A stretch of DNA of 64,000 bases, taken from the IMG/VR virus record IMGVR_UViG_3300044647_000866. The stretch is one strand, 5' to 3'. This document shows positions 1,956 through 57,591 of this stretch, piece after piece. Positions within the stretch are counted from its first letter, which is position 1. Each line of letters opens with the position of its first letter. The position numbers were made by a program, and so were the translations under genes. The notes beneath the pieces were generated by a model. It saw nothing but the letters and a program-made list of their open reading frames with translations. It had not been told where the DNA came from and searched no databases. This DNA comes from an uncultured virus (IMG/VR IMGVR_UViG_3300044647_000866). Its lineage: Duplodnaviria > Heunggongvirae > Uroviricota > Caudoviricetes.

Positions 1956-1984
1956 TTGCGAACTTTCTACTCTGTTGTTAATCT
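1956..1984 (+). promoter_or_regulatory. Sigma70-like promoter for the capsid gene
   Basis: TTGCGA-17 nt-TAATCT with TGn extended -10. Confidence 0.55.
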
Positions 1985-1994
1985 ACAACTGAAC

Positions 1995-2183
1995 TCGTCC
2001 GTTGGAACGATATCCAGCCGTGTCGCACACGTTAAAAACGTGCTGATTTCGCCCCGCATAGGCGTTAAACGTGCCGAGGTCGCGCCTCGTTAATACGCGC
2101 TAAGTCGTGACCCCACGATACGGGGAAACGGTTTAGCCGCACCACAAGTCGGCTGTAGGCTGGTAATGCATGTGCATTACTAG
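1995..2183 (+). ncRNA. Structured capsid 5' leader: tandem small pseudoknots plus two hairpins
   Basis: Repeated S1-S2-S1'-S2' units, e.g. CGAGG/CCTCG with CGCG/CGCG and TCGT/ACGA with GTTGGA/TCCAGC; hairpin CTGGTAATGCA/TGCATTACTAG at 2160-2183. Confidence 0.55.
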
Positions 2184-2213
2184 ATTTTGTAACGCAATTA
2201 AAGGAGAAGCCAA

Positions 2214-3356
2214 ATGGCTCTTACTAACTTTGCGGCGCTGACTAGTGATCAACTCACGGCGTGGAGCCGTGATTTCTGGCGCGTCGCTCGCAATATGTCG
2301 TTTGTGAACCAGTTCGCTGGTTCGGGTTCTAATGCAATGATCCAGCGCGTGACCGAGCTGACGAAGTCAGACAAGGGCACGAAGGCTGTCATCACGTTGC
2401 TCGCCGATATGACCGGTGACGGCGTGACGGGCGACACCACGCTTGAGGGTAATGAAGAGGCGCTCCGCGCTTACGACATCACCATCGAGCTCGATCAGCT
2501 GCGCTTTGCGAACCGCATTGCCGGTCGCCTCGCTGATCAGAAGTCGGTCGTCAACTTCCGTGAGACCAGCCGCGACGCCCTCGCCTACGCGATGGCTGAC
2601 CGTATGGACCAGCTCGCGTTCTTGACGCTCGCCGGTGTTGCTTACACGCACAAGACGAGCGGTGGTCTTCGCAGCGTTTTGGCCTCTGGCCAGAACCTGT
2701 CGAACCTTGAGTTCGCCTCGGACGTGTCGGCTCCGACCGCTGCTCGTCACCGTCGCGTTTCGGGCAACGACATCGTCGCCGGTGATACGACCACGATCAC
2801 GTCTGCTGACATCCTCAAGTATCGCCATATCGTGGCCCTCAAGGCCTACGCTAAGGACCAGTACGTCCGTGGTGTTCGCGGCGCTGGTAACGACGAGGTG
2901 TTCCACCTCTTCGTGACGCCGCAGCAGATGGCCGCCCTCAAGCTCGATTCGGACTTCCTTGCCAACGTGCGTAACGCTGGCATCCGTGGTCCGAGCAACC
3001 AGTTGTTCGCTGGTTCGAGCTCGCTGATGGTCGACGGTGTGATGGTCCACGAGTTCCGCCATGTGTTTAACACTGCTGGCGCGACGACTGGTACCTCGGC
3101 GAATGCCGGTGCCGCTGGCTACAAGTGGGGTGCTAACGCCAACGTTGTTGGTGGTCGTGCCCTCTTCTGCGGCGCTCAGGCTCTCGCTATGGCCGACATC
3201 GGTCTGCCGGAAATCGTCGAAGATACCTTCGATTACCAGAACCAGTCTGGTATCTCGATTGGTAAGATCTTCGGTCTCCGCAAGCCGAAGTACAACAGCG
3301 ATGTCACTGCCAGCGTCCAAGACTTTGGCGTGATCGCGCTCGACACGGCCATCTAA
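2214..3356 (+). CDS. Major capsid protein, N4-gp56/DUF4043 family
   Basis: 380 aa; TELTKSDKG...GDGVTGDTTLEGNEEAL...LDQLRFA and ALFCGAQALAMA...GLRKPKY...DFGVIALDTA; AAGGAG SD; terminator follows. Confidence 0.9.
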   Translation: MALTNFAALTSDQLTAWSRDFWRVARNMSFVNQFAGSGSNAMIQRVTELTKSDKGTKAVITLLADMTGDGVTGDTTLEGNEEALRAYDITIELDQLRFANRIAGRLADQKSVVNFRETSRDALAYAMADRMDQLAFLTLAGVAYTHKTSGGLRSVLASGQNLSNLEFASDVSAPTAARHRRVSGNDIVAGDTTTITSADILKYRHIVALKAYAKDQYVRGVRGAGNDEVFHLFVTPQQMAALKLDSDFLANVRNAGIRGPSNQLFAGSSSLMVDGVMVHEFRHVFNTAGATTGTSANAGAAGYKWGANANVVGGRALFCGAQALAMADIGLPEIVEDTFDYQNQSGISIGKIFGLRKPKYNSDVTASVQDFGVIALDTAI

Positions 3357-25012: not shown

Positions 25013-25948
25013 ATGCCATTACAGTCGTCTGGCGAGATCAGCATGTCGCAGATCAACGCGGAGTTTGGTCGCGGCAATGACTTGAACTCGTATCGCGGGA
25101 CATCGCACGCCAGCGGTACATTCCCAAGTGGGACGATTGCGTTCAGTGATTTCTATGGCAAAAGCGTCCCGCCGTCAGGCGGTACGTTTAGCCCTGACGG
25201 CAGCACGTCATCCAGCAGCCGTGTTTTGGTTCAGGATTATTTCTATGGAGAAGCAGGCGGCACAGCGCAAGCCTCCATTTCATGCACCCAGTCCGCTTCA
25301 TGGACATGGACCAGAGTCGCTGGCTCATTTGGAGCCGGTCAGGTTGACGGAAGCACTCTAGTTGCATCCGGCAGCGGGACAGGCAATACGGCGAACTTCG
25401 TCCTAGGCACTGGGTTTAATGCATATCGAATAGCCGAGTTCGAGGTCAACGCGACGTCGGGTAGTAACACCCGGTATTGGCGCGTTTACCTTGAGACCGA
25501 GTACACGGGATGCCCGTTCTGCTGTTTCACGCCTGACACCCTCATCCTGATGGGCGATGGGTCACTCAAGGCGATCGGCGAGGTGCGGGTCGGCGACTTC
25601 ATCCTCACGTACAGCGAGGAGCTGAAGATCAATGTCGCCGTGCCGGTAACTGAGGTCATCGTTCGCGCCGACCGCCCGATGTACCAGTACACCTTTGAGG
25701 ACGGCTCTACGCTCAAGGCGTCCGAGGAACACCCGCTGTATATCCTCGGCAAGGGGTATGCGTCCCTCGTCCCGGTCCCTGAGTACAAGGACATGGGTCT
25801 CGCGAAGGTCGTCGAGCTTGGGGACAGCGTTGTGAACGAGCTTGGCAGCCCTAAAAAGATCGAGAAGATCGAACGCATCTCATACGCCGGGGCTGTTTAC
25901 ACGTTCGGCAACACGCGGTTCTACGCCAACGGCATTTTGGTGTACTAA
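25013..25948 (+). CDS. Tail tip/adhesin-like protein with C-terminal Hint domain
   Basis: N-terminal LQSSGEISMSQINAEFG...GTIAFSDFYGK; Hint motifs CFTPDTLILMGDGSLKAIGEVRVGD, SEEHPLY and FYANGILV. Confidence 0.8.
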   Translation: MPLQSSGEISMSQINAEFGRGNDLNSYRGTSHASGTFPSGTIAFSDFYGKSVPPSGGTFSPDGSTSSSSRVLVQDYFYGEAGGTAQASISCTQSASWTWTRVAGSFGAGQVDGSTLVASGSGTGNTANFVLGTGFNAYRIAEFEVNATSGSNTRYWRVYLETEYTGCPFCCFTPDTLILMGDGSLKAIGEVRVGDFILTYSEELKINVAVPVTEVIVRADRPMYQYTFEDGSTLKASEEHPLYILGKGYASLVPVPEYKDMGLAKVVELGDSVVNELGSPKKIEKIERISYAGAVYTFGNTRFYANGILVY

Positions 25949-26172: not shown

Positions 26173-26200
26173 ATGGGGGCAGAAATGCCCCCGTCTTTTT
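26173..26200 (+). terminator. Intrinsic terminator
   Basis: GGGGGCA-GAAA-TGCCCCC followed by GTCTTTTT. Confidence 0.75.
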
Positions 26201-26234: not shown

Positions 26235-28874
26235 ATGGCAGGTTTCGTGATTCGAGGATTTCGCGGCATGCGTCCGATCCTCGACCCAAAGCTCCTTGAT
26301 TCCTCTGAGGCACAAGAAGCCAAAGACGTTCGCCTTTTCTCCGGCAACATCGAGCCTGTCGAGAGCAACACCACCGTCACTGCGCTCAAGACCGTTTCAG
26401 GCACTGTGCAGACAATCTTCCGCGCCAGAGACAACGTCGACGAATCCCTGAACTGGTTTGAGTTTACGGCGGACGTGGACATCGCACGATCGCCCATCAC
26501 GCAGGACAGCTACGGCAGGACGTATTGGACTGGCGAGGACTACCCTCGCTACGCCCCTGAGTCTGTGGCGTTTTCCTCTGGCTCATCTGCCTACCCGCGC
26601 AACTCGTATCGCCTTGGCATCCCGAAGCCGATAGTTGTTCCGCTTGTGACTGGCGTTCCGGTGACTGAGGCCGACACTGTCGAGCGCACCTACGTCCTGA
26701 CGTACATCAACACCGACGGAAGCAAGGAGTCCGCTCCCAGCGCTGAGGTGAAGGTCAAGGCGCTTTCTGCGAACGTCGATACCGGCGTCATTCTGGTTAC
26801 CGGGTTCACCTACGAGAGCGGCACGTCCTACGTAGTGACCTGCTCTGCCTCGCACAACCTTGCCGTCAAGGACTACATCGGCGTCACCGGCTCGACTGAG
26901 GCCGGCTGGAACGACACTTGGGAAGTCTCCGCGGTCGTTGACTCCAAGGTGTTCAAGGTCAAGAACACGCAGGCATTCCCTGCTCAGCCACCGGCTGGCC
27001 CGTATGTCGTCAAGCGCCGATACCCGCCGAAAGTGAAGCTGTTTAGTCTGCCGACAGATAACAATGGTAACTTGGACATAACCAGCAAGCGCATCTACCG
27101 CAAGGTGAGCGGCACGTTCCGCCTCGTGGATACCGTCCCACTGAGCGATGCAGAGTACATCGACCTGCATACGGATGCGGATCTGGCCGCGGGTGCGCCT
27201 CTGGCTTCCGGCGTCGAGAACCGCCCGACCCGTCCGATCACACCGCCGGTTGCGGTCATCCCGTTTACTGACACTACGGTGACTCCGGGTGCAACTACGG
27301 TGGCCAACGTCTACGCGACCGCTTTCGTGACCGCCGCCAACGTCGAGGGCACCCTCAGCAAGTCGTCTGGCGTGGTCAAGGTCATAGACGGCGTGACATC
27401 TGTCAATATCACCCACAACGAGGTGGTAGCCAGCGATGTCACCAAGAAGCGCATCTACCGCCAGACCGTCACCTACAGCGGGACGGGCACCTACACAGTG
27501 ACGGACTCCGCCTATCGGCTGGTTGTCGAAGTGCCGGTGTCCCAATCCTCGTACACGGACACGGCCTCAAGCTCCGGCATCTCAGGCAACGCTGCCCCTG
27601 CCGTCCAGAATGGCATCGACGAGCCGCCGGGTGGAGCCGTGGCGGCGTTTGGCGCGGTGGGGGCACTTCCGGCCAAGGTCACCGCTGAGAGCCGCGTATA
27701 CGTCTACACGTACGTCTCTGAGTACGGTGAGGAGGGGCCGCCTTCCGCTCCGTCCACCCTGATCGACGTCAACCCCAACGAGGGGGTTCTAGTCGTGACC
27801 GGGGGTGCGCCGACCGGAAGCTACAACATCACCAAGAAGTACATCTACCGCACGTCTAGTGGCTCAAGCGCAACAGATTACCAGTTCGTTGCTGAGGTTG
27901 CCGTCGGTACCACCAGCTACACGGACTACAAGAAGCAGACTGAGCTGGGCGAGATCATGCCGTCGCTCGACTGGGAGCAGCCGCCGACCAACCTGAAGGG
28001 CTTGAAGGTCATGGCCAATGGCATCTTCACGGCCTTCTCTGGGAAGGATTTGTGCTTCTCAGAGCCGTTCATGCCGCATGCGTGGTCGAGCAAGAACTTC
28101 CTGCCTGTAGACGCCACGATCATCGGCCTTGGGACGTTCGGCCAGTCGGTCGCTGTACTGACTGACTCCTTCCCGTACATCGCTACAGGCATCGACCCGT
28201 CTGCCATGACGCTCGTAAAGACGTCCTTTCAGCAGGCGTGCGTCTCAAAGCGGTCTATCGTGGATGCTGGCGACTCAGTCATCTATGCATCGCCGGACGG
28301 CCTTGCTCAGATCGGCCTGAACGGCGTCAGCCTGCTCACCGCAAAGATGCTGTCGCAGAAGCAGTGGCAGGAATACAACCCTTCGTCCATCCATGCCTAC
28401 ATTCACGAGGGGCGGTACTACGCCTTCTACACGAAGACGGACAACTCCAAGGGGCTGCTCGTCTTCAACTTAGTGGGCAACGATGCGCCGTTCACGATCG
28501 GCACGCAGACGACCACAGCTGGCCATGTTGTAGCTACGTCGGACTCTTTGCACATCGTCGAGTCGAACAACATCGTCAAGATGGACAAGTCCTCGACCAA
28601 GCGCAATTACCTCTGGAAGTCGAAGGTTTTTGAGTCTGCTCAGGAGACCAACTTCGGCGTGGCTCAGGTTTTCTGCTCTACATACACGAACAACTGTACG
28701 CTTAAAATATACGCCGATGGCGTACTCAAGCTGACAAAGGTGGTAGCGAGTGCAGACCCGTTCCGCCTCCCAGCTGGGTACTTGGCACGCAACTGGTACG
28801 TGACTGTTGAGGGACAAGATCCTGTGCAGATGATCGCTGTGGCCCAGTCTACCGCTGAGTTGAAAGGCGCATGA
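26235..28874 (+). CDS. Tail nozzle/stabilisation protein
   Basis: GFRGMRP.LDPKLL....AQ.A N-terminus, FSEPFMPHAW, CVSKRSIV, YASPDGL, W.SKVF and PFRLPAG; three internal K.IYR repeats. Confidence 0.78.
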   Translation: MAGFVIRGFRGMRPILDPKLLDSSEAQEAKDVRLFSGNIEPVESNTTVTALKTVSGTVQTIFRARDNVDESLNWFEFTADVDIARSPITQDSYGRTYWTGEDYPRYAPESVAFSSGSSAYPRNSYRLGIPKPIVVPLVTGVPVTEADTVERTYVLTYINTDGSKESAPSAEVKVKALSANVDTGVILVTGFTYESGTSYVVTCSASHNLAVKDYIGVTGSTEAGWNDTWEVSAVVDSKVFKVKNTQAFPAQPPAGPYVVKRRYPPKVKLFSLPTDNNGNLDITSKRIYRKVSGTFRLVDTVPLSDAEYIDLHTDADLAAGAPLASGVENRPTRPITPPVAVIPFTDTTVTPGATTVANVYATAFVTAANVEGTLSKSSGVVKVIDGVTSVNITHNEVVASDVTKKRIYRQTVTYSGTGTYTVTDSAYRLVVEVPVSQSSYTDTASSSGISGNAAPAVQNGIDEPPGGAVAAFGAVGALPAKVTAESRVYVYTYVSEYGEEGPPSAPSTLIDVNPNEGVLVVTGGAPTGSYNITKKYIYRTSSGSSATDYQFVAEVAVGTTSYTDYKKQTELGEIMPSLDWEQPPTNLKGLKVMANGIFTAFSGKDLCFSEPFMPHAWSSKNFLPVDATIIGLGTFGQSVAVLTDSFPYIATGIDPSAMTLVKTSFQQACVSKRSIVDAGDSVIYASPDGLAQIGLNGVSLLTAKMLSQKQWQEYNPSSIHAYIHEGRYYAFYTKTDNSKGLLVFNLVGNDAPFTIGTQTTTAGHVVATSDSLHIVESNNIVKMDKSSTKRNYLWKSKVFESAQETNFGVAQVFCSTYTNNCTLKIYADGVLKLTKVVASADPFRLPAGYLARNWYVTVEGQDPVQMIAVAQSTAELKGA

Positions 28875-36297: not shown

Positions 36298-39200
36298 ATG
36301 GCCATTGATACTTCATTCCTGTTTAAGCAGACCGGATCGACTCAGCCTGAGAAACGAGCCGCTGCGATACAGGATGCCGCCGCACAGCAGGATGACCAGC
36401 TGATCACGGGCACTCAGCCGTCGTCTATCGACACTAGCTTCCTGTTCAAGGCTCCCGCTCGCGCCGCTATTCCGCCTGAGACAACACCTGAAGAAGTTGC
36501 CGCTGAGCAACCCGGCACGTCTAACCCGCTTTATGGTGCTGCCGCTAGAACAGCAACCATTGCTGGCGAAACTGTCGAGGCCACGAAGCGCGTTGGAGAA
36601 GCTGCTCCTGTATCAGCCTTCCAGCCGGGTATCTCCGGACTTGGCGCTGGGATTAAGCTTGTCGCCCCAACTCTACAGAAGTGGGCAGACGGTCTTCGAG
36701 GCTGGGGAGAGAGCATTGGCTACTCTCCTAGCACTCAGCTAAAAAACATAAGCGACAATCCATTAACTCTTATTCCGTTTATCGCGGAAAGAGTTATCAC
36801 ATCTGTTCCCGATATGGCTGCTGCAGCTTTGGCTACTCCCGTGTATGCCGCTGCTCGCACAAACGAAGTGCTTAACGAGCGCCTCAAGAACGATCAGAAA
36901 ACTCTTGAGGATGCCACGGTTGGTGACGTTGCCACCGCCGCTGGCGTTGCCGCTGTCGAAACTATGTTCGAGCGTTTTGCCACTAACCGCATCTTCAAGA
37001 AACTTCCTGAAGGCGAGGGCTTGTCGATTCCGCGAACCCTCCAAGAGACTGGCGTTCAGGCTGGAACTGAGGGCGTAGAAGAAGCCGCTGCGTACCTTGG
37101 CGGAACAGCTGGCACCAAGGCTGGCGTAAACGTCAACGACCTTGCGGCTAACGTACTTGAGGGCATGATCGTTGGCGGCGGACTTGGCGCAACAACTCAG
37201 GCTGTTAGGGAGATTGCCACCGCGCTCCGGAAGGAGCCTTCTGCCGGCCCCACAACTGCAGAAGCGCAACCGACCCCAGTGGCACCTGTTGGAGAACCCG
37301 CAGCCACAGCCGAAACAACTACTGTTTCACAGCCTAGCACAACTGTTGTTTCTGACGCGCAAGCTGCAGCACCGACTGTTGAGCCTGCTGGAACAGCTGT
37401 TACCCCTGTCGTTACGGATCAAGGGGTTACGGCTCCGGCTCTTGCTGTTGCCGCTGCACCAGTAACAGCTGCTCCCGCAGAGACAGAGGGTGCGGGAATT
37501 ATCTCGACTGCAGACCTCAAGCAGCAGCTCGTCGAGATCGATGCCGAAGCTGCCGCCCGTGCTGCAGAACAGGCTCTGGCCACGACTGAGCTGCCCGAAG
37601 GCCTTACTGTGGATAACTCCGTCACCGAAAACTTCGGGCCGGATGACACACGCTTCGCCGCCTTCGAGTCGCCTACCGACAAGGAGCTGTATGTCCTTGG
37701 CAAGCTGAATCGTCGCCCTGCAAAGACGCCTGAGCTGACGGAGACGGCGCGTCAGCTGACTTCCAAGGTATCTGAGGCTCTGGGTATCCCCGTCGAGGAA
37801 GTCGCCCAGAGGGCGGAGGCGACCCGTGTGGCGACACAGAACGGGTTGTCCGGCGTCCAAGCTGGGGCGGTGTATCGAGTCCCGACAGGGATCACTACGC
37901 CTCCCGTCAGCCCCCTAATGCAGCTTGCGAGCGACCAGATCGGGGAAAAGTTTAGCCTCCCAGAAGGGGAGAAGGTTGTCATCCCCGAAGCGCCGGTTGA
38001 CCCGGTGCGCACTAAGATCGCCTCCGTCATCAAGGATGCGTTCGGGGTGGACGTGGTGTGGGCCAGCCTGCCGAAGGGCGGCAAGGTCAAGACCAACAAG
38101 GGCCGCGAGCTGGTCGCCATCAACGGCGCACGCATTGCCGGCACGAATGCCATCCTGCTCGACGCCAACAACTACAGCTTCCTGAACACGCTGGGCCACG
38201 AGCTGACCCACGTTCTGGAGACTCAGTACCCGCAGCTTTATCAGCAGCTGATAACACTCGCCAAGGCGAAGGTCAGCAAGAAGTTCCAGAACCAGCTTCG
38301 CAAGGAAGTTGCTAACGATGCTGAGTTCAACTCAGAGCTGGTGGCTGAGATGGTCGGCGAGCAATCGACTGATCCGAAGTTCTGGCAGGAAGTGTTCGAC
38401 GCAGCTGGCGATCAGACTTCCGCTCAGGGATTCCTCGATGCGCTGAACAAGATCATCGACCGTATCCTGAGTGCGCTTCAGGGCTACCAGCCGATGGTCG
38501 TCCAGAGCCGCAAGGATGCACTGGCCGTGCGTCAGGCTGCTCAGCAAGCGTTCCAGCAGTGGATCACGGCACGACAACAGGCTGCTCAGCAGGTCGCCGC
38601 AGACCAGCAAGCCGCAGTGCAGGCTGCCGCAGCCGTTACTCGCCCAGCGCCAGCGGTCAATCCGTTCTTGGTCGGCACATCACTAGACCCAAATGCACCC
38701 AAACCGGCGGAGCTTGGCCCACCGAAGGTTCCACCTTCACGGCAGGCTCAGGTCAACATTGGCCAGAAGGGCCGCCGCTTTGTCACCTTTGCCGCTGACC
38801 TCGACAAGGATCTGTTCGAGCTTGGCGCTAAGCTGAAGAAGGCCGCAAAAACGCTGAGCAAGTCTGACCGTGAATCAGCCGACGCTCGTCTCGTTCGGTT
38901 TATGGCCGTCACCGGCCTGCCCCGCGCAGAGATGATCGATGTCGCAAAGAACTATCGAGATGCTGTCGTCAAGGCAGCGGGTGCTGTTCAGGAGGACGGC
39001 ACCTACGAAGCCCCGGCAACCAACATAGGAGAGCGTCGTGCCGTTGAAGAAAGGAAAGTCGAAGAGCGTCGTGAGCCGCAACGTGAGCGAGCTGATGAAC
39101 AAGTACGAGAAGTCCGGCAAGATCGGGAGCAGCCGCCCGTCGAGCAAGCCGAAGGCGCAGAAGCAGGCGGTCGCGATCGCGCTGCAGAAGGCAGGCCGCA

Positions 39201-42200
39201 GCCGGAAGAAGTAGCCGCTGAGGAAGAAGTCGTAAGGGAGCTGCCGCAGTTCTCGCGTAAGCGTCCTGCGGTAGACCCCGACTTCGCCGACAGTGTTGCT
39301 GAAGATGTTGGCCTCAACGCAGAACTATCTGAGGCCACGTCTCTCAAGTACCAGACCGGCAAGTCCGGCGAGGATCAGTTCAACACACCAGTTGTTGGCG
39401 GACTGACCAACACTGTTCTTGAGATTGAGCGTGCCCGTCGAGAAGGCACTCTTGGGCAGCTCGACCTCGACAGCGAGAGCGATCGCAATACTGTTGCGAA
39501 GATGCTTGCCGCCGAAGTTGTTGCTGCTGTTCGTGCCGGCGGTGGCGCTAAGGAGTGGTATGACAAGACCATCCGTCGCACTCTCGCTATGGCATCGCTC
39601 AAGTTTCCTGAGCTTTCCACCGACAAGGAAGCGCAGACCGCATTCCGTCTGTCTGTTGCCATCACTTCGCAAGGCCTGAACGTAGAGGACAACCTCAAGT
39701 TCGCCATGCAGGTGTACGGTGAGTACAGAAAGAGCGGCACCTTCCCGCTCAAGGGGCAGGGCAAGAACGGCGGCGCGATGGTGAGCAACTTCCAGCTTGC
39801 CAATACGCTCATGGAAAAGATGGGCATGGAGCGATTCTCTCGCTTCCTTGAGACTGACTTCGTTGCGTCTGAGTTGAATGCAGTCGGCTTCAACATCGAC
39901 GAACTTGCTGACGAGAAGATCCTTGGCTCGTCTGTGTTCGGCCCGAAGATCGGCTTCGGCTTCTACTCGAATCTCTCTGGCAACTTCGAGCCTGTCACGA
40001 TCGACATGTGGTTCATGCGAACCATTGGCCGCTTGATAGGCAAGCTTCGCGCTTTCGACGCCAAGCTGTTTGCCTCGCAGCGAGACAAGTTCCGTGCAGC
40101 GTTTGCTGTTGAAGGCGTCAACGGCATCTTCATCAATTCCCGCAACATGTCTGGCAGCCGTCTGTTCAGTGCAGACCTTGTGCAGAACGCGGCAACAGAC
40201 GATGACGCAGCTGTTACTTTGGCCCGACTTGTTACCCGTGCGCACGAGCGTGACTTCAAAGTCAATCGCAAGGCCTACGACAACAAGACTCGCGTCAAGT
40301 CATCGCTAGTCAATAACGCGGCCAACATGCTAAAGTCCCTCGACAAGCCGAAGGATGCACCTTCGAGCGGGTCTGAGAGGCGCAACCTACGTGACATTGT
40401 TCGTCAGACAGTCTCCCTTGTTGAGGGTGTTGTCGGCGAGCGTATCCCGCCGGCTTCTATGCAGGCTCTTGTCTGGTATCCAGAGCAGGAGTTGTACAAG
40501 TCGTTTGGCGTGAAGCTTCGTGTAACGAGCCAAGACTATGCCGGTGCAATCCGTAAAATCCTTGAGAAGGAGGGATACAGTGGAAGAGAACTCAGCGCAG
40601 CAGCCGAATCTGGATCAAGAGGCGCACAACGAGTGGCTGGCCAGCCTCTCGAAGCCGAAGATGCTGGAGTTGTCGGACAAGTTGAACAGCCTGATGCTGC
40701 AGAAAGAGCAGGCCGCCAGCTCACCGCAAGAGAGCGTGAGCGACTCCTCGTCTCCGAAGTCATTAAGCGGTATCGACAGAGCAGTGCAGAGGCACAAGGG
40801 TCTTACAAGATCCGAAGCGCAGGAGATGGCCGACGCATTCGGGTTCTGAGTAATGACGCCAAGGCTGAATACAAGCCGGTCATTACTTTCAAGAATGCAC
40901 TTGGAGCCGTAGGCAAGCCGGCTCCCACCATGTACGAGCTGGATGGCGGAGCGCCCTTGTTCCGTCAGGCCATCCAAGACTCGAAGAACAACAGCAAGTT
41001 TGGTGCTGCGGTCTACGTCTACGACGAGGCCGACTACGCCAACATGCGCCTGTTCATCTCTGATGACGGCAAGTCAGGCTTCGCCCTCAAGGGCAATGAC
41101 ATTGTCTCTGTGTTTAGCGGACAGAAGGGATCTGCCAACGCCATGCTGCAGCTTGCTGTGGATCAGGGCGGACAGCGGCTTGATGCCTTCGACACTGTTC
41201 TTCCTGAGCTGTATGCAGACAACGGCTTCAAGGTTGTTGCTCGCGTTAAATGGAATGACGAGTACAGCCCTGAAGGCTGGGACAAGGCGACGTTCGCCAA
41301 GTACAACAACGGCGAGCCTGATGTCGTGTTCATGGTCTATGACCCGGCCAACGCTTCTGAGCTTGGCGGCAAGACCATTGAGAACTACGACGATGGCGTA
41401 GCTGCGCAGGAAGATGCGATCGGCAAGCAGACTATCCAGTTCTCCCGTGTTCGCAGCGAGACAAATGCTGACGGCAAGCAGATTGCCAGCACGCCTGAAT
41501 TCATCCAGAACTTCTGGAACTGGTTCGGCGACAGCAAGATCGTAGACCGCCGTGGCCGCCCAAAGGTCATGTATCACGGCACGATTCCGCCCACTGTTGG
41601 CGCTGAAGAGTTTATCGACCAAGGCATCAGCGTGTTCCGCCGCGGCACTGGTGGCGCGATCTTCGTGTCACCTGACGAGCGAGTTGCGAACACGTACGCT
41701 GGGCCGGGTGGATCTGTGTATCCATTGTATATACGCGCTGAGAATCCGTTCGACTTCGAGAATCCTGATCACGTCAAGCGAGTTCTGGATATCTGGGAGT
41801 CCAATAACGTCGGTATCCGCGAGACTCGTGAGCAGGCCATTGCCAAAGGCAAGTGGCAGATGATCGAGAACGTCGAGATCCAAGACGCCATCAAGCTTGC
41901 CGGCTTCGACAGCTACTACGTGAAGGAGACTGGGGCCAAGAACCTCGCGCTGTACGACCCATCACAGTTGAAGTCAGCTGTTGGGAATGTTGGCGAGTTC
42001 TCGCCTGAGCGTCCTGAGATCCAGTTCTCGAAGGTGCGTCAGGGCCGCAAGTACTGGCTGCCTGAGTTCGGTCGACTGCAGCGTTTGCTGCGTGGCGTGC
42101 AAAACGAAGTGCTTGCCACTGCTCGTGCGCAAAGGGCTGTTGCTGCTCAGGGTGGCGTGCTGACTGACTCGACAGAGATCGAGTCGGCAATGCATCGCAT

Positions 42201-44712
42201 GTATGGCCGCGCCGGAAACCGTCTCGATCGCTTCCGCAAGGACGTAGTCGAGCAGATCCTCAAGCGTGCTTCTGACATGAACGTCAGCCTTGCAGACGTT
42301 GAGCTGTACTTGTACGCCAACCATGCCAAGGAAGCGAACCGTCGCATTGCTTCGATCAATCCGCAGATGCCAGATGGCGGCTCAGGCATGACGAATGCTG
42401 AAGCTGATCAGGTTATGGCAACGCTGCGGCAGGACATGCCACAGTTCCTGCGCACGAAGTCCATCGCAGATGAGATTCAGAACATCACAAAGATGACTCA
42501 GGCTGCGCTGGTCAATGGCGACATTGTCAGCCCTGCTGATTTGGCCGCTTGGAACGCCACGTACAACTACTACGTTCCGCTCAAGACATTCGAGCAGGCT
42601 GACGATCTTGGCCGGGTGACTGGCAATGGCCGGTTTGACCTTGCCAATGCATTCTCGAAGCGTCGACTTGGTCGCAGCAGCAAAGCCGGCGCGATCGTCG
42701 AGAACATCTTGGCGGACTACGAGGAAGCTGTTGTCGCTGTTGAGCGAAACAATGTACGCAAGGCGTGGCTGCAGTTTATCCTGAGCAACAAGGACAGCGA
42801 ACTGTGGCAGGTCAACAAGCCTGTCATGCAGCGTGCGTTCTACAAGAACCCTGTCGAGGAAGTTCGATACCGCCTGACTATCCAGAAGGATGCGGAGACT
42901 CTCCCAGTCCGTGTGGGTGGCGAGGTGTATCACATGGTCATCAAAGACCCTGAGATCCTCGAAGAACTGCAGATGACGAGTGTCCTGTCGCAGTTCCCGG
43001 ATACGATCAAGTCAATCCTTGGCGGCATGAATACGTTTGGCCGCACGCTATCCAAGCTGTGGACTGTGCTGTCGCCGCCGTTCGTGCTGATCAACGCATC
43101 TCGCGACATTCAGACATCGCTGATCAACACCGGCATCGACCAAGGGCTGTGGAGTTCCGCGAAGCTGTTGGCAACACTGCCGAAGGCTGCTTACACAGTG
43201 TGGCGTGCTGAGCGTAACAACGCTTGGACTGGCGACCTGAAACAGTACTACGACATGTATCGTGCTGATGGCGGCAAGACTGGTGCGCTTGATCTGAGGC
43301 AGATCGAAGACCGCCACAGTGATCTGATGTCCATGTATCGCAACGCACAGGCGTCGATAGGTAAGCCACTGACGTACCACCGCCTGACCATGCGGTATCT
43401 GAAGGGCGTAGAAAACTTCATGATGGACATCAACGGTGCCATCGAAGGCGCTGCTCGTGTTGCCGCATACAAGGTCGCAATGGAGAACGGTAAGTCGCGC
43501 ATCCAAGCGACTAACATTGCGAAGGAAATCACGGTCAACTTCAACCGTCGCGGCAAGTGGACTCCGGTGCTGAGCGGAATGTACCTGTTCTTCAACCCTG
43601 CAGTTCAGGGTGCAAAGCGCACGGTGAGCGCTGTGTTCAGCAAGCGTGGCGCTGCTGTCGCAACTGGGCTTGCAACCCTTGGATACTTCATTGCAGAGAT
43701 GGCGGCCTCCGCTGTCGGTGACGATGAGGAGCCGTACTGGGATAAGCCATCAATGCGCCAGACTAAGCTGAAGAACCTTGTGTTCTTCGGGCCGAATGGC
43801 GAGACCTACAATGTCCCGCTGCCGTATGGCTTTGGCTTCTTCGTGAACCTTGGCTATGCGCTTCGTGACCTGAAGAATGGCGCAGACCCGTTAAAGGTCG
43901 GTGCGTTTATGCGAGATTCCGCATCGCTTCATTTCTCGCCGCTTGGCTCGATGGACAACATGGCGACCTTCCTGTCTCCGACGCTCATCGATCCGGCGAT
44001 GGTTCTCATCACTGGCGAGAAGGAGACTGGCCTGCCGCTTATGCCGGAAGACTTCACTGGAGTCACCCCGGACAGCGAGCGGTACTGGAACAACACTCGC
44101 GATACGATGTTCCAGAACGTAACTGCTGCTCTGTATGAGATGACCGGCGGTGGCGCTGGCGGAAAGATGGCTATCGACGTGTCGCCTGAGTCTGTCGAGT
44201 ACATCACGTCGTTCCTGACAGGCGGTGCTGGTACGTTTGTGAAGGATGTCATCAAGACATTCGATGCGATGGCCAACACCGGCACTGCGTCGGCCACTGA
44301 GCAGAACCTGATCCCGATCTTGAAGGCCGTTCACAGGCAGCCCGACGGTCGGTATGACTCCAGCGCGTTCTACGAGAATGCCAAGGAGGCAAAGGAAGCC
44401 GCTCGTGACTTCAATGCGATCATGGAGTCAGAGACCGAAGTGTCCGAAGAGAAGCTTGCCTACGCAGACTCTGTTGCTGGCATGGCCGCACTATCGCGGT
44501 TTGCAGACAAGCAGAAGCGAGCCATCTCAAACCTGCGCCAGCAGGACTTGGACATCCAGCAGGATGAAACTTTAACTAGGGAAGAGAAATATGGACTTCG
44601 TAAAGAAATTGCTGAGCAGATTCGTCAAACCCAAGTTGAGTTCAACGTCGCCTTCTACGCCGAGCGTCGAGCCGCCGAAGCAGAAGAAGCAGAAGGTCAA
44701 GCTGAAGAATAA
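36298..44712 (+). CDS. Giant polyvalent ejection protein, 2804 aa (HExxH, GNAT-like, ART-like, LPD38-like C-terminus)
   Basis: GHELTH; VTIDMW; RLDAFDTVLPELY..NGF; WFGDSKIVD..G.PKVMYHGT...QLKSAVGN.GEF; TVNFNRRG...YLFFNPAVQG...VPLPYGFG. Confidence 0.85.
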   Translation: MAIDTSFLFKQTGSTQPEKRAAAIQDAAAQQDDQLITGTQPSSIDTSFLFKAPARAAIPPETTPEEVAAEQPGTSNPLYGAAARTATIAGETVEATKRVGEAAPVSAFQPGISGLGAGIKLVAPTLQKWADGLRGWGESIGYSPSTQLKNISDNPLTLIPFIAERVITSVPDMAAAALATPVYAAARTNEVLNERLKNDQKTLEDATVGDVATAAGVAAVETMFERFATNRIFKKLPEGEGLSIPRTLQETGVQAGTEGVEEAAAYLGGTAGTKAGVNVNDLAANVLEGMIVGGGLGATTQAVREIATALRKEPSAGPTTAEAQPTPVAPVGEPAATAETTTVSQPSTTVVSDAQAAAPTVEPAGTAVTPVVTDQGVTAPALAVAAAPVTAAPAETEGAGIISTADLKQQLVEIDAEAAARAAEQALATTELPEGLTVDNSVTENFGPDDTRFAAFESPTDKELYVLGKLNRRPAKTPELTETARQLTSKVSEALGIPVEEVAQRAEATRVATQNGLSGVQAGAVYRVPTGITTPPVSPLMQLASDQIGEKFSLPEGEKVVIPEAPVDPVRTKIASVIKDAFGVDVVWASLPKGGKVKTNKGRELVAINGARIAGTNAILLDANNYSFLNTLGHELTHVLETQYPQLYQQLITLAKAKVSKKFQNQLRKEVANDAEFNSELVAEMVGEQSTDPKFWQEVFDAAGDQTSAQGFLDALNKIIDRILSALQGYQPMVVQSRKDALAVRQAAQQAFQQWITARQQAAQQVAADQQAAVQAAAAVTRPAPAVNPFLVGTSLDPNAPKPAELGPPKVPPSRQAQVNIGQKGRRFVTFAADLDKDLFELGAKLKKAAKTLSKSDRESADARLVRFMAVTGLPRAEMIDVAKNYRDAVVKAAGAVQEDGTYEAPATNIGERRAVEERKVEERREPQRERADEQVREVRQDREQPPVEQAEGAEAGGRDRAAEGRPQPEEVAAEEEVVRELPQFSRKRPAVDPDFADSVAEDVGLNAELSEATSLKYQTGKSGEDQFNTPVVGGLTNTVLEIERARREGTLGQLDLDSESDRNTVAKMLAAEVVAAVRAGGGAKEWYDKTIRRTLAMASLKFPELSTDKEAQTAFRLSVAITSQGLNVEDNLKFAMQVYGEYRKSGTFPLKGQGKNGGAMVSNFQLANTLMEKMGMERFSRFLETDFVASELNAVGFNIDELADEKILGSSVFGPKIGFGFYSNLSGNFEPVTIDMWFMRTIGRLIGKLRAFDAKLFASQRDKFRAAFAVEGVNGIFINSRNMSGSRLFSADLVQNAATDDDAAVTLARLVTRAHERDFKVNRKAYDNKTRVKSSLVNNAANMLKSLDKPKDAPSSGSERRNLRDIVRQTVSLVEGVVGERIPPASMQALVWYPEQELYKSFGVKLRVTSQDYAGAIRKILEKEGYSGRELSAAAESGSRGAQRVAGQPLEAEDAGVVGQVEQPDAAERAGRQLTARERERLLVSEVIKRYRQSSAEAQGSYKIRSAGDGRRIRVLSNDAKAEYKPVITFKNALGAVGKPAPTMYELDGGAPLFRQAIQDSKNNSKFGAAVYVYDEADYANMRLFISDDGKSGFALKGNDIVSVFSGQKGSANAMLQLAVDQGGQRLDAFDTVLPELYADNGFKVVARVKWNDEYSPEGWDKATFAKYNNGEPDVVFMVYDPANASELGGKTIENYDDGVAAQEDAIGKQTIQFSRVRSETNADGKQIASTPEFIQNFWNWFGDSKIVDRRGRPKVMYHGTIPPTVGAEEFIDQGISVFRRGTGGAIFVSPDERVANTYAGPGGSVYPLYIRAENPFDFENPDHVKRVLDIWESNNVGIRETREQAIAKGKWQMIENVEIQDAIKLAGFDSYYVKETGAKNLALYDPSQLKSAVGNVGEFSPERPEIQFSKVRQGRKYWLPEFGRLQRLLRGVQNEVLATARAQRAVAAQGGVLTDSTEIESAMHRMYGRAGNRLDRFRKDVVEQILKRASDMNVSLADVELYLYANHAKEANRRIASINPQMPDGGSGMTNAEADQVMATLRQDMPQFLRTKSIADEIQNITKMTQAALVNGDIVSPADLAAWNATYNYYVPLKTFEQADDLGRVTGNGRFDLANAFSKRRLGRSSKAGAIVENILADYEEAVVAVERNNVRKAWLQFILSNKDSELWQVNKPVMQRAFYKNPVEEVRYRLTIQKDAETLPVRVGGEVYHMVIKDPEILEELQMTSVLSQFPDTIKSILGGMNTFGRTLSKLWTVLSPPFVLINASRDIQTSLINTGIDQGLWSSAKLLATLPKAAYTVWRAERNNAWTGDLKQYYDMYRADGGKTGALDLRQIEDRHSDLMSMYRNAQASIGKPLTYHRLTMRYLKGVENFMMDINGAIEGAARVAAYKVAMENGKSRIQATNIAKEITVNFNRRGKWTPVLSGMYLFFNPAVQGAKRTVSAVFSKRGAAVATGLATLGYFIAEMAASAVGDDEEPYWDKPSMRQTKLKNLVFFGPNGETYNVPLPYGFGFFVNLGYALRDLKNGADPLKVGAFMRDSASLHFSPLGSMDNMATFLSPTLIDPAMVLITGEKETGLPLMPEDFTGVTPDSERYWNNTRDTMFQNVTAALYEMTGGGAGGKMAIDVSPESVEYITSFLTGGAGTFVKDVIKTFDAMANTGTASATEQNLIPILKAVHRQPDGRYDSSAFYENAKEAKEAARDFNAIMESETEVSEEKLAYADSVAGMAALSRFADKQKRAISNLRQQDLDIQQDETLTREEKYGLRKEIAEQIRQTQVEFNVAFYAERRAAEAEEAEGQAEE
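39038..39214 (+). CDS. Nested (+1 frame) small basic protein of the PLKKG...QAVAIAL type
   Basis: AGGAG 6 nt before GTG; (M)PLKKGKSKSVVSRNVSELMNKYEKSGKIGSSRPSSKPKAQKQAVAIALQKAGRSRKK*. Confidence 0.72.
   Translation: MPLKKGKSKSVVSRNVSELMNKYEKSGKIGSSRPSSKPKAQKQAVAIALQKAGRSRKK
40580..40849 (+). CDS. Nested (+1 frame) 89-aa protein
   Basis: AAGGAGG 6 nt before GTG; ends IDRAVQRHKGLTRSEAQEMADAFGF. Confidence 0.6.
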   Translation: MEENSAQQPNLDQEAHNEWLASLSKPKMLELSDKLNSLMLQKEQAASSPQESVSDSSSPKSLSGIDRAVQRHKGLTRSEAQEMADAFGF

Positions 44713-56344: not shown

Positions 56345-56353
56345 GACGATTCC

Positions 56354-57571
56354 TCACGCCGCTTCGGGCGCATTTGGGGAGTTGACATCGACCACGTCGG
56401 GCGTGACGACAGGCGGCGCGAGACCAGCCATCGCGGCCTCGATACCAGCGTCCGACATGTTCGCTTTCCATATCTGCTGCAGGACTTCACGCGATTCAGG
56501 CGATGCTCGATTGACCATCGTCTGCTCGAATGCCAGTCGCGGCGGCACCTTGTCGGCCAGCGCCTCAGCAAGGTAGAACGCCTCGCGCAGCGTCGGGACA
56601 TGGTCGAGTTGGCTAGACTGACCAGCCTGCCGCATGACCGACAGCATGCTCACGATCAGCGTCGACAGGTTGCTGTGGACGCCAGTGCGGCTGCTGATGA
56701 CCTGCGCTTCGTCCGCCGATTGCAGGTAACTGAACTCGATCGTGCGAGCGAAGCGGTTGACGAACGCGACGTTCATCTCGCGCACCCCGGCGTACATGCC
56801 GGTGTAGTCGCCGCGACCGTTCGAGTTGTCCGCAGCCATGAACACCACGCCCGGAGCCTTGCGAATCACCTCGCCAGTCTCAGGCACCGTGACCACGCCC
56901 TCCGGCTCCAGCGGCGCATGCAGCGCCGACAGGTACTCAGGTCGAGCGAACGACACCTCGTCGAGCAGGATGACTGCACCGGGGCGCACGAAACCGCGCA
57001 GGATGATGCCGTGCTGGTAGACGGTCGAGCCGTTCTTGACACGCTCGCCGCCGATGAACTCGTAGCGCTCAGCACCGCTGTCGAACGACACGCGGACGAA
57101 GGCGCGACCAAGGCCAGCGCACAGGTTGCGCACGAACTCCGTCTTGCCGGTGCCGGCAGGGCCAGCCAGCCACACGTTGCGGCCACGGGCAACAGCCGTC
57201 ACAGCAGTGAACAGTTGCTCCGCGTTGAACTTGTACAACGGGTCGAGCGCGGGGGCTGCAGGGTCGTTGTAAACATCGACCTCGTACGCACCGTGCTTGC
57301 CGCGGATGCCGAAGACCTCGCGCAGCGACTTGCGAGCGACCACCTCGACGTTGGGCACCTCGACCGCCGCAGAAGGCGTAGGAGCCGCGATCGGTGCGAG
57401 GGAGCCTGAGATCAGGCCCATCGAGGAAATCGCCTCAGCGACCTTCTCCTGCGGCAGAGCGGCCACTTGCTCGATGAAGTCCTGCTTGGACTTGCGAGCG
57501 TAGTCGCCAGCGGAGCCGGACACCCGGCGAACCAACTCGACGAGTTGGGCCTTGGACATTTGGTTGATCAT
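56354..57571 (-). CDS. CobS/MoxR-like AAA+ ATPase
   Basis: GPAGTGKT, ILLDE, AADN..G.G...Y.G...N.AF.NRF; start moved to ATG 57571 with GAGG SD. Confidence 0.88.
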   Translation of the reverse strand: MINQMSKAQLVELVRRVSGSAGDYARKSKQDFIEQVAALPQEKVAEAISSMGLISGSLAPIAAPTPSAAVEVPNVEVVARKSLREVFGIRGKHGAYEVDVYNDPAAPALDPLYKFNAEQLFTAVTAVARGRNVWLAGPAGTGKTEFVRNLCAGLGRAFVRVSFDSGAERYEFIGGERVKNGSTVYQHGIILRGFVRPGAVILLDEVSFARPEYLSALHAPLEPEGVVTVPETGEVIRKAPGVVFMAADNSNGRGDYTGMYAGVREMNVAFVNRFARTIEFSYLQSADEAQVISSRTGVHSNLSTLIVSMLSVMRQAGQSSQLDHVPTLREAFYLAEALADKVPPRLAFEQTMVNRASPESREVLQQIWKANMSDAGIEAAMAGLAPPVVTPDVVDVNSPNAPEAA

Positions 57572-57591
57572 GGGAGCCTCACAGTTGTTGT

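What the first reader, a model, noticed from the sequence alone, without database searches (positions are those of the whole stretch)
1995..2183. Array of up to five small H-type pseudoknots in the capsid mRNA leader
Seen: between a sigma70-like promoter and the capsid SD are units that differ in sequence but share topology. PK1 TCGT/ACGA + GTTGGA/TCCAGC (1995-2018); PK2 CGTGT/ACACG + GCAC/GTGC (2019-2043, ambiguous because stems overlap); PK3 CGCC/GGCG + GCAT/GTGC (2050-2074); PK4 CGAGG/CCTCG + CGCG/CGCG (2075-2099); PK5 TCGTG/CACGA + CCC/GGG (2105-2125). Each S1 3' strand carries CG followed by TTAA or ATA. Two hairpins follow. Inference: a structural repeat that acts as a nuclease roadblock or protein-binding array tuning capsid output. 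Stems are short, so single units are weak; the repetition is the signal.
Basis: partly seen in the sequence, partly recalled or inferred. Interest (0 to 1): 0.72.

Follow-up and report, generated by a model that had tools for sequence, protein, structure and literature searches.

The report
Pseudoknot-chain leader RNA of capsid mRNA
The untranslated start of this uncultured lake phage's capsid message is a real, strongly conserved RNA built from a row of small knotted hairpins, found in hundreds of related aquatic phages and in no RNA catalogue, whose job (probably protecting or tuning the capsid message) is still untested.

Summary
In this one sequence, five knot-like units are only modestly unusual (1 of 200 shuffles, 11 of 150 other genome windows reach five). 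The real signal is comparative. The same ~165-nt core sits 34-63 nt before the major capsid ATG in every relative examined (104 distinct leaders, capsids 80-100% identical), behind a conserved sigma70-type promoter. It matches no Rfam family.

Covariation supports all five hairpins. It also supports the crossing (pseudoknot) helix of unit 3 and one pair of unit 1. The crossing helices of units 2, 4 and 5 rest mostly on invariant CG pairs, so they are undecided. Unit 5 has a nested rival helix.

Metatranscriptome contigs start at 2009-2025 and run through the leader into the capsid gene, so it is a 5' UTR and not a terminated small RNA. The last hairpin is not a conserved terminator.

Function is inferred only. 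I favour a 5'-end cap and decay barrier for the late mRNA (~0.35), ahead of a protein-binding operator, an antiterminator or a riboswitch. I class it as a new variant of structured phage leader RNAs.

The parts
1956..1984 (+). Sigma70-type promoter: -35 TTGCGA 1956-1961, 17-nt spacer, -10 TAATCT 1979-1984. The predicted start is about 1990-1993.
   Evidence: Read. It is conserved in relatives: 102 of 103 distinct leaders have a TANNNT hexamer within 24 nt upstream of unit 1 (TAATAT 49, TAATCT 13), and at least 65 have TTG at -35 with 16-18 nt spacing. The simple consensus scan does not flag it in this window. RNA contigs begin at 2009, 2015 and 2025, and three of four runs have no cover at 1500-1968.
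1995..2018 (+). Unit 1. Hairpin 2001-2005/2014-2018 with loop ACGAUA. The 5'-terminal (U)CGU 1995-1998 pairs with the loop ACG(A) 2007-2010, giving an H-type pseudoknot.
   Evidence: All five hairpin pairs covary and 97.7% of cells are paired. The crossing pair 1998-2007 is UA86/CG6/UG4 and never unpaired, and two further pairs are invariant. There are 6 pair-state changes on a tree with 0 non-canonical states.
2019..2040 (+). Unit 2. Hairpin CGUG 2019-2022/CACG 2028-2031 with loop YCGNA, an A-rich tail UUAAAAA 2032-2038, then the invariant CG 2039-2040 that could pair with the loop CG 2024-2025.
Evidence: The hairpin is 100% paired and two pairs covary (UA56/GC31/CG9; GC54/CG41). The CG/CG pairs are invariant, and the third pair is unpaired in 41 of 96.
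2050..2074 (+). Unit 3. Stem CGCC 2050-2053/GGCG 2061-2064. Loop GCA 2056-2058 pairs with UGC 2072-2074 across the tail UUAAACG. This is the best-supported pseudoknot.
   Evidence: An MI/APC scan finds 2056-2074 and 2057-2073 without any prior structure. There are 18 pair-state changes at 2056-2074 with 0 non-canonical states among 96 sequences.
2075..2099 (+). Unit 4. Stem CGAGG 2075-2079/CCUCG 2085-2089. Loop CGC(G) 2081-2084 may pair with (C)GCG 2096-2099 across the tail UUAAUA.
   Evidence: The stem is 99.8% paired and 3 of 5 pairs covary. In the crossing stem, 2 pairs are invariant. The third (2083-2097) is CG79/UA3/AU1/UG1 with 12 unpaired. The fourth is unpaired in 63 of 96.
2100..2136 (+). 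Unit 5. Hairpin CCCC 2111-2114/GGGG 2122-2125 with loop ACGAUAC. Upstream UCGU 2105-2108 may pair with the loop ACGA 2115-2118 (pseudoknot). Alternatively 2100-2108 pairs with 2128-2136 (a nested long helix).
   Evidence: All four hairpin pairs covary and 97.4% of cells are paired. The crossing stem has no double change. The rival long helix is 92.8% paired, with A-U/G-U 50/46 at one pair and 32 mismatches at another. It is the helix that the MFE and centroid folds choose.
2135..2154 (+). Hairpin 6: AGCCG/CGGCU with a 10-nt loop. It is almost invariant.
   Evidence: 99.8% paired, 4 of 5 pairs never vary. It is part of the search pattern used.
2160..2189 (+). Hairpin 7 (10 bp) followed by AUUUUG. 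It looks like a terminator in this window.
   Evidence: flags it. A hairpin with dG <= -6 is present at this place in 85 of 104 leaders, but only 29 of 104 have >=5 T in the next 8 nt. RNA contigs cross it into the capsid gene.
2192..2216 (+). ACGCA box 2192-2196, Shine-Dalgarno AGGAG 2202-2206, capsid start codon 2214-2216.
   Evidence: ACGCA is present in 44 of 104 leader tails. The SD is unpaired in the MFE fold.
2214..3356 (+). Major capsid protein gene (380 aa), the first gene of a + strand structural block that runs to 44712.
   Evidence: PF13252 E 7e-47; phrog_334 E 5.5e-83; TIGR04387 capsid_maj_N4 64.4 bits against a cut-off of 60. Gene map.

Best explanation
Positions ~1990-2213 are the 5' untranslated leader of the capsid (late structural) mRNA, made by host RNA polymerase from a conserved sigma70-type promoter. 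Its first ~165 nt fold into a chain of five compact hairpin modules, followed by two further hairpins. Units 1 and 5 are hairpins with an ACGAUA loop whose ACG can pair with a CGU just upstream. Units 2-4 are 4-5 bp GC stems with a small CG-containing loop and a 6-7 nt UUAAA-type tail, after which 2-4 nt pair back to the loop. This is the geometry of small H-type pseudoknots of the luteovirus frameshift type (geometry recalled, not computed). What is shown: the RNA is conserved and under selection, the hairpins exist, unit 3 and probably unit 1 are true pseudoknots, and the leader is transcribed in one piece with the capsid gene. What is inferred: unit 1 ties up the first nucleotides of the transcript, and the row of tight, mechanically stable knots keeps 5'-end-dependent decay enzymes (RppH/RNase E entry and scanning, or a 5' exonuclease where the host has one) away from the message. 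That would leave the SD free, so the most abundant virion protein is made from a long-lived mRNA. Odds: real structured leader 0.95; at least two true pseudoknots 0.75; all five 0.3; the stabiliser mechanism 0.35.
For: Conservation. A covariance model of the nested helices hits the window once (1990-2158, 171 bits, E 1e-53; next best 7 bits). It hits 100 of 100 related loci at 120-187 bits. 43 columns are invariant in 104 distinct leaders. Mean pairwise identity of the core is 76%, against 51% at capsid third codon positions (80 loci).

Structure. Whole structure: 93.0% of cells paired against 83.4% in shuffles, covariation score 0.294 against 0.112 (0 of 500 shuffles reach it), and 0.035-0.057 with slid partners. 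Pseudoknot pairs alone: 96.4% paired, score 0.128 against 0.077 (0 of 500), slid 0.002-0.049. The alignment was fitted to a model without the crossing pairs, so it does not lean towards them. A blind MI/APC scan recovers the hairpins plus 2056-2074, 2057-2073 and 2083-2097. RNAalifold recovers hairpins 1-6. Many G-U pairs (for example UG32 at one pair of hairpin 1) fit only the + strand RNA.

Transcript. RNA-library contigs 2009-2605, 2015-2335, 2025-2368 and 2092-2658 cross the leader and hairpin 7 into the capsid CDS. There is no cover at 1500-1968 in 3 of 4 runs.

Position. In relatives the -10 hexamer ends mostly 8-12 nt before the CGY of unit 1, so the transcript would begin a few nt before the first stem. 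The SD is unpaired in the fold.
Against: No result bears on decay or translation, so the mechanism is inference from anatomy. A plain stabiliser usually needs only a 5' hairpin, which does not by itself explain five modules with invariant loop and tail bases. The crossing helices of units 2, 4 and 5 have no clean covariation: the pairs are invariant, 12 of 96 sequences are mismatched at 2083-2097, and 41 of 96 at 2026-2038. Unit 5 has a nested rival. RNAalifold proposes yet another partner for the 5' CGU (2097-2099). Shuffle controls ignore relatedness, and my tree was built from the same short alignment, so event counts may be inflated. The RNA evidence consists of contigs from RNA libraries, which cannot show true 5' ends or strand and may contain DNA. 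The four runs may come from one campaign. Likely hosts (relatives infect Pseudomonas, Aeromonas and Burkholderia) lack a known 5' exonuclease (recalled), which leaves only the RNase E route.
Confidence: 0.4

Rival explanations
1. Protein-binding operator array. The five presentations of CG-(U/A)UA(A) in loops and tails are sites for an oligomeric phage or host RNA-binding protein that sets capsid translation or couples it to assembly, in the manner of the T4 gene 32 operator (a pseudoknot plus UUAAA-type repeats; recalled).
For: Loop and tail bases are invariant, including CG at 2008-09, 2024-25, 2039-40, 2081-82 and 2098-99 and A at 2034, 2067-68 and 2093. That is more sequence constraint than helices alone need. 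The element always travels with the capsid gene, one copy per contig.
Against: No candidate protein was identified. The SD lies ~45 nt beyond the array and is not part of it. The invariant bases can also be explained by pseudoknot pairing and A-minor contacts. Cultured relatives with 46-53% identical capsids lack the element.
Confidence: 0.25
2. Processive antitermination or anti-Rho element. The nascent RNA acts on the transcribing host polymerase (as HK022 put RNA does; recalled) so that it reads through to the end of the ~42-kb late block.
For: The element sits directly behind the promoter at the head of a + strand block 2214-44712 with genes of 1808, 1900, 1340 and 2804 codons. No phage RNA polymerase or known antiterminator protein turned up in the PHROGs and Pfam scans. 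A strong terminator-like hairpin lies inside the block at 26173-26194. In this window, hairpin 7 with its U run is crossed by RNA contigs.
Against: There is no sequence or architectural likeness to put (two stem-loops, ~70 nt; recalled), and no model was at hand to test it. Terminator-like counts in the block are at the shuffle expectation (22 against 19.6; 19 against 17.8). Other promoters inside the block were not excluded.
Confidence: 0.15
3. Riboswitch-type sensor. One or more knot modules bind a small ligand and hairpin 7 acts as the expression platform.
For: Units 2-4 have the same topology as the preQ1-I aptamer (hairpin, A-rich tail, 3' end pairing to the loop; recalled). The core is highly conserved. 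Hairpin 7 is terminator-like in this window.
Against: No Rfam riboswitch model matches, even at E<=10 or in five divergent members. The loops are only 5-7 nt, which leaves little room for a pocket. Hairpin 7 lacks a U tract in 75 of 104 leaders and is missing in some. No alternative pairing between the core and hairpin 7 or the SD is conserved (by eye).
Confidence: 0.07
4. A separate small RNA (promoter to hairpin 7, ~195 nt) that acts in trans or self-assembles, with the capsid mRNA arising only by read-through.
For: It has its own promoter and a terminator-like end in this window. The self-complementary CG/CGCG/ACGU elements could also pair between molecules. A preprint, of which I read passages, reports phage 5' UTR motifs (manA) forming RNA-only cages (10.64898/2026.07.01.735769).
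Against: RNA contigs run from the leader into the CDS in all 4 runs. The terminator feature is not conserved. The distance to the ATG is held at 34-63 nt.
Confidence: 0.06
5. Not an RNA structure: a small ORF, a DNA-level protein-binding repeat, or chance.
For: A 45-codon TTG ORF spans 1956-2093. In a single sequence the short stems are near chance.
Against: 88 of 96 distinct cores have stops in all three frames, and lengths vary from 162 to 172 nt. Compensatory changes and strand-specific G-U pairs are present.
Confidence: 0.02

Closest known systems
T4/T2 gene 32 mRNA leader (autogenous translational operator; recalled, no paper read here)
   Same: It is a phage mRNA leader with a compact H-type pseudoknot near the 5' end and UUAAA-type A/U-rich elements upstream of the RBS.
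   Different: T4 has one pseudoknot followed by an unstructured tract, and it regulates the gene of the protein that binds it. Here there are five structured modules ahead of a capsid gene, and no binder is known.
Small H-type pseudoknots of luteovirus frameshift sites (BWYV type; geometry recalled)
   Same: Units 2-4 have a stem 1 of 4-5 GC-rich bp, a loop 1 of 1-2 nt, a stem 2 of 2-4 bp and a 6-7 nt A-rich loop 3.
   Different: Those lie inside coding RNA of plant RNA viruses and act on ribosomes. These are tandem, in a 5' UTR of a DNA phage, and no slippery site is involved.
Tandem pseudoknot arrays: the TMV 3' upstream pseudoknot domain (three) and tmRNA PK1-PK4 (recalled)
   Same: Several small pseudoknots follow each other, head to tail, in one RNA.
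   Different: The location (3' UTR or tmRNA body), sequences and partners are different. ARAGORN finds no tmRNA or tRNA here.
HK022 putL/putR antiterminator RNAs (recalled)
   Same: A cis-acting structured RNA directly downstream of a host-polymerase promoter at the head of a long phage operon.
   Different: put is ~70 nt with two stem-loops and no pseudoknot chain. No similarity could be tested.
Exonuclease-resistant RNAs (xrRNA) of flaviviruses and plant viruses (recalled)
   Same: Compact pseudoknotted modules, sometimes in tandem, that stop a 5'-to-3' enzyme mechanically.
   Different: xrRNAs lie in 3' UTRs or intergenic regions of eukaryotic RNA viruses and stop Xrn1. No bacterial or phage counterpart is established.
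csRNA 'DNAVirus_3698' in PMC10690425 (I read passages plus supplementary tables mmc6 and mmc8)
   Same: An unnamed 85-nt candidate from IMG/VR with 180 sequences, 80 freshwater and 90 marine. 37 copies lie within 25 nt upstream of capsid_maj_N4 genes, which is the family and the habitats of this leader.
   Different: Its sequence files could not be opened here, so identity is not established. It is half the length, with 2 covarying bases and no structure or function discussed in the text that I saw.
Rfam freshwater-2 (RF02980)
   Same: The best Rfam score falls on hairpin 7 plus SD plus ATG (2164-2216).
   Different: 20.4 bits against a gathering score of 49.9, E 1.4. It is not a member.

Membership tests
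H-type pseudoknot (structural class) | Two helices in crossing order (S1 5', S2 5', S1 3', S2 3') can be written in the sequence. | tested here: met
All five units.
H-type pseudoknot (structural class) | Evolutionary support (compensatory change, few mismatches) for both helices of a unit. | tested here: inconclusive
   Met for unit 3 (three covarying crossing pairs) and, on one pair, for unit 1. Units 2, 4 and 5 have invariant crossing pairs or mismatches. Unit 5 has a nested rival.
H-type pseudoknot (structural class) | The fold is physically formed in the RNA. | not testable with these tools
   This needs SHAPE/DMS probing or a solved structure. ViennaRNA does not model pseudoknots.
Any Rfam 15 family (including preQ1-I, freshwater-2 and ribosomal leaders) | The covariance-model score reaches the family's gathering threshold. 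| tested here: not met
   The best score is 20.4 bits against 49.9. There are 0 matches at gathering in five divergent members.
Intrinsic terminator / transcription attenuator | A GC-rich hairpin directly followed by a U tract, conserved in the family. | tested here: not met
   It is present in the window, but only 29 of 104 leaders have >=5 T of 8 after the hairpin.
Intrinsic terminator / transcription attenuator | Transcripts end at the hairpin. | tested here: inconclusive
   RNA-library contigs cross it in 4 of 4 runs. Contigs cannot show what fraction of transcripts terminates.
Sigma70 promoter | -35 and -10 hexamers at 16-18 nt spacing, conserved, with a transcript start ~7 nt downstream. 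| tested here: inconclusive
   The hexamers are conserved. The window's own hexamers fail the simple consensus scan. RNA contigs start 18-34 nt downstream of the predicted start and none covers 1500-1968 in 3 of 4 runs. No true 5' end data exist.
T4 gene 32-type autogenous operator | The regulated gene encodes the protein that binds the leader. | not testable with these tools
   The downstream gene is the major capsid protein. No binding data exist.
put-type processive antiterminator RNA | It lies between a promoter and the terminators of a long operon, and it modifies the polymerase. | not testable with these tools
   The position fits. The activity and the put consensus could not be tested.

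The most novel reading that the evidence does not exclude
The leader is a new class of phage cis-acting RNA in which a palindromic chain of five miniature pseudoknots (type a, b, b, b, a) works as one machine. One version is a bacterial-world counterpart of exonuclease/RNase-resistant xrRNAs that caps the 42-kb late transcript. The other is a protein-free, put-like modifier of host RNA polymerase. In either case a modular tandem-pseudoknot device would control late gene expression in a whole clade of abundant freshwater and marine phages.
Probability: 0.2. Interest if true: 0.8.

Novelty: new variant of a known kind. Interest (0 to 1): 0.6.

Why it matters
Structured leaders of phage late mRNAs are barely studied outside T4 and T7. 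This one is abundant. It is small enough for structure determination, and it offers a natural series of minimal pseudoknots with built-in covariation.

If it blocks decay or modifies the polymerase, it would be a compact, portable expression element and a new mechanism in bacteria. If it binds a protein, it points to an unknown regulator of capsid synthesis. Notes from this scan list other, unrelated pseudoknotted capsid leaders in aquatic phages. That suggests a general strategy which has not been recognised.

Tried and rejected
- Rfam search of the window region at E<=10, and of five divergent loci at gathering: nothing. ARAGORN: no tRNA or tmRNA.
- blastn against cultured phages matched only inside the capsid CDS (7 records, 60-80% identity).
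- The covariance model found no leader before the capsid genes of KPP25, phiA008 or a Manatee Spring podovirus. The best score was 6.8 bits (E 0.09) at a different gene.
- Metagenome scan: 118 matches. A motif filter in a script kept 13, and all 13 were confirmed by the model. The other 105 were not run through the model. They added no variation at the invariant CG pairs.
- Alternative hairpins CACGUU/AACGUG and (C)AGG/CCU(G): 66% and 68.5% paired with no double changes, rejected.
- H6 loop CUCC pairing with the SD, boxA-like and ops-like resemblances of the CGUUAA tails, and ACGCA-box pairing with hairpin 7 were considered by eye only. They were dropped because they are not kept across relatives or are buried in stems.
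- Small ORF: rejected.
- VIPR vrRNA (GGYNN repeats plus a pseudoknot tail; passages of 10.64898/2026.10.15.759431): unrelated architecture.
- The window's own assembly is not held, so there was no whole-genome search.
- Literature searches for a prior description found none apart from the possible overlap with DNAVirus_3698.
- Earlier notes of this scan hold no look-alike sequence.

Full report
WHAT IS THERE. The finding lies in the 262-nt gap between a 42-codon ORF (1823-1951) and a 380-codon gene at 2214-3356. That gene is a major capsid protein of the N4-gp56 type: PF13252 E 7e-47, phrog_334 E 5.5e-83, and TIGR04387 at 64.4 bits against a cut-off of 60.

In this one sequence the pattern is only modestly unusual. 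My script finds 5 non-overlapping H-type-like units in 1995-2125, against 2.89 +/- 0.82 in 200 dinucleotide shuffles. 1 of 200 shuffles reaches five, and so do 11 of 150 other 131-nt windows of the same 64 kb. The MFE of the whole gap has a z-score of -1.73.

RELATIVES. A capsid-protein scan of IMG/VR gave at least 599 matching stretches, and the best 80 (80-100% aa identity) were kept. Their upstream regions all carry the same element.

Over all loci held, 187 pattern matches were found:
- 167 have a capsid-type SD and ATG 34-63 nt downstream.
- 4 are true leaders cut by a contig end.
- 16 are unrelated chance matches.

These rows include the same contigs fetched twice. Distinct leader sequences number 104.

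A covariance model of the six nested hairpins (165 positions, 27 pairs) gave these results:
- It hits the window exactly once (1990-2158, 171 bits; next best 7 bits).
- It hits 100 of 100 related loci at 120-187 bits.
- It confirms 13 metagenome contigs.
- It hits none of 120 pattern matches in representative prokaryote genomes.
- It finds no leader before the capsid genes of the nearest cultured phages: KPP25 (53% aa identity), phiA008 (46%) and a Manatee Spring podovirus (41%).

No Rfam family matches, and there is no tRNA or tmRNA. The core is as conserved as the capsid gene itself. Mean pairwise identity is 76%, against 75% for the first 300 nt of the CDS and 51% at its third codon positions. 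43 columns are invariant. It is not coding: 88 of 96 cores have stops in all frames and lengths vary from 162 to 172 nt.

STRUCTURE. Three approaches agree on hairpins 1-6: a blind MI/APC scan, RNAalifold on the MAFFT alignment, and pair counting on the model-based alignment.

For nested plus crossing pairs together:
- 93.0% of cells pair, against 83.4% in shuffles.
- The covariation score is 0.294, against 0.112 (0 of 500 shuffles reach it).
- With partners slid by 1-3 columns the score is 0.035-0.057.

For the 14 core crossing pairs alone:
- 96.4% pair, against 93.1%.
- The score is 0.128, against 0.077 (0 of 500), and 0.002-0.049 when slid.

The model that produced the alignment holds no crossing pairs, so it does not favour them.

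Unit by unit (unless stated):
- Unit 3. The crossing helix is well supported. 2056-2074 is GC70/AU15/GU11 and never unpaired, with 18 pair-state changes on a tree. 2057-2073 and 2058-2072 also show double changes, with 10 and 11 mismatched sequences.
- Unit 1. The pair 1998-2007 is UA86/CG6/UG4 and never unpaired (6 changes on the tree). Its two neighbours are invariant.
- Unit 4. Two crossing pairs are invariant. The third is C-G in 79, compensated in 5 and mismatched in 12. The fourth exists mainly in this window's close relatives.
- Unit 2. Only an invariant CG/CG remains.
- Unit 5. The CGU/ACG pairing never covaries. A nested alternative, 2100-2108 with 2128-2136, is 92.8% paired and is what the energy model prefers.
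- RNAalifold offers one more partner for the 5' CGU (2097-2099). However, 2007 and not 2097 changes together with 1998, and 2097 changes together with 2083.

I therefore read units 1 and 3 as pseudoknots, unit 4 as probable, and units 2 and 5 as open. Two alternative hairpins that I had seen by eye fail (66% and 68.5% paired). Frequent G-U pairs place the structure on the + strand RNA.

The modules come in two kinds. Units 1 and 5 have a variable stem with an ACGAUA(C) loop whose first bases match an upstream CGU. Units 2-4 have a 4-5 bp GC stem, a 5-7 nt loop with CG, a UUAAA-type tail and then the return strand. The return strand of unit 3 abuts stem 1 of unit 4 (2074|2075), and stem 2 of unit 1 abuts stem 1 of unit 2 (2018|2019). 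These loop lengths match what I recall for minimal H-type pseudoknots such as the BWYV frameshift knot. I did not compute a 3D model.

TRANSCRIPT. Upstream of unit 1 the relatives keep a -35/-10 pair. 102 of 103 have TANNNT (TAATAT 49, TAATCT 13), and spacing is 16-18 nt. In the window the pair is TTGCGA 1956-1961 and TAATCT 1979-1984, although the simple consensus scan does not flag it. The -10 element mostly ends 8-12 nt before the CGY of unit 1, so the RNA should start a few nucleotides before the first stem.

Fourteen lake DNA runs hold the stretch, and six river metatranscriptome runs hold 38-44% of its words. In four of these, contigs begin at 2009, 2015, 2025 and 2092 and run on to 2605, 2335, 2368 and 2658. 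That takes them across hairpin 7 and into the capsid gene. Three of the four runs have nothing at 1500-1968.

Contigs cannot prove a start, an end or a strand. RNA libraries can hold DNA, and the runs may be one campaign. So this is a hint only, but it fits a promoter-driven 5' UTR and argues against a fully terminated small RNA.

Hairpin 7 is common (85 of 104 with dG <= -6), but a U tract follows in only 29 of 104. It is therefore not a conserved terminator.

CONTEXT. The capsid gene opens a + strand block of structural genes that runs to 44712. The block includes genes of 1808, 1900, 1340 and 2804 codons, the last with ART-PolyVal and LPD38 domains. The PHROGs and Pfam scans found no phage RNA polymerase and no known antiterminator. 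The phage is thus likely to depend on host polymerase.

FUNCTION (inferred). The SD is free in the fold and lies ~45 nt beyond the core, so direct occlusion of the RBS is unlikely. My ranking is as follows:
- (a) A 5' cap and roadblock against 5'-end-dependent decay, about 0.35.
- (b) An array of sites for an RNA-binding protein, about 0.25. The five-fold CG-(U/A)UA motif and the invariant loops favour it.
- (c) A put-like or anti-Rho element for the 42-kb operon, about 0.15.
- (d) A ligand sensor, about 0.07.
- (e) A separate or self-assembling RNA, about 0.06.

None of these was testable here.

PRIOR ART. Three full-text searches found no description. A large screen of IMG/VR (PMC10690425; I read passages and two supplementary tables) lists the unnamed candidate DNAVirus_3698. 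It is 85 nt, with 180 sequences (80 freshwater, 90 marine), and 37 copies lie within 25 nt of capsid_maj_N4 genes. This may be a fragment of the same leader, but its sequence files could not be read here.

Notes of this scan mention other pseudoknotted capsid leaders in other phage genomes, but none resembles this one in sequence. I did not check those notes.

VERDICT. The element is a real, widespread and uncatalogued structured leader RNA.

Noticed in passing
window 36298-44712 (+): A 2804-codon gene at the end of the structural block carries ART-PolyVal (ADP-ribosyltransferase, E 1e-17) and LPD38 domains. It is a 'polyvalent' giant virion protein.
   Followed up: no
window 26173-26194 (both strands): A strong bidirectional terminator-like hairpin (9 bp, 6 GC, with T runs on both sides) lies inside the + strand structural block, between the genes at 25013-25948 and 26235-28874.
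   Followed up: no
window 54365-57811 (-): Adjacent genes encode an AAA_5 ATPase and a CobT-C/VWA-domain protein (a CobS/CobT-like pair) in the replication/early region.
   Followed up: no
window 25013-25948 (+): A 311-codon ORF has weak, sub-threshold Hint and AXH-module matches (23-25 bits, below the Pfam cut-offs).
   Followed up: no
L202 41-150 (MW202615.1, Manatee Spring podovirus): A weak model match (6.8 bits, E 0.09) has a unit-1-like piece (UUCGU, a stem, a CGAUAU loop) ahead of a small hypothetical gene and not the capsid gene.
   Followed up: no
L200 1293-1473 and L201 1304-1500: The cultured relatives KPP25 and phiA008 also have long (~180-200 nt) non-coding gaps before their capsid genes. 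These are unrelated in sequence to this leader, and KPP25's begins with a terminator-like hairpin.
   Followed up: partly
window 2192-2196 and relatives: An ACGCA box ~10 nt before the SD occurs in 44 of 104 leaders (CGCA in 68 of 104). No conserved partner was found.
   Followed up: partly
window 1996-2130: Eight CpG dinucleotides outside the nested stems are invariant or nearly invariant (1996-97, 2008-09, 2024-25, 2039-40, 2081-82, 2098-99, 2106-07, 2116-17). Position 2129 of the ACGG motif (2128-2131) is also nearly invariant next to invariant G2130. They are mutually complementary in many combinations, so covariation cannot say which pairs with which.
   Followed up: partly
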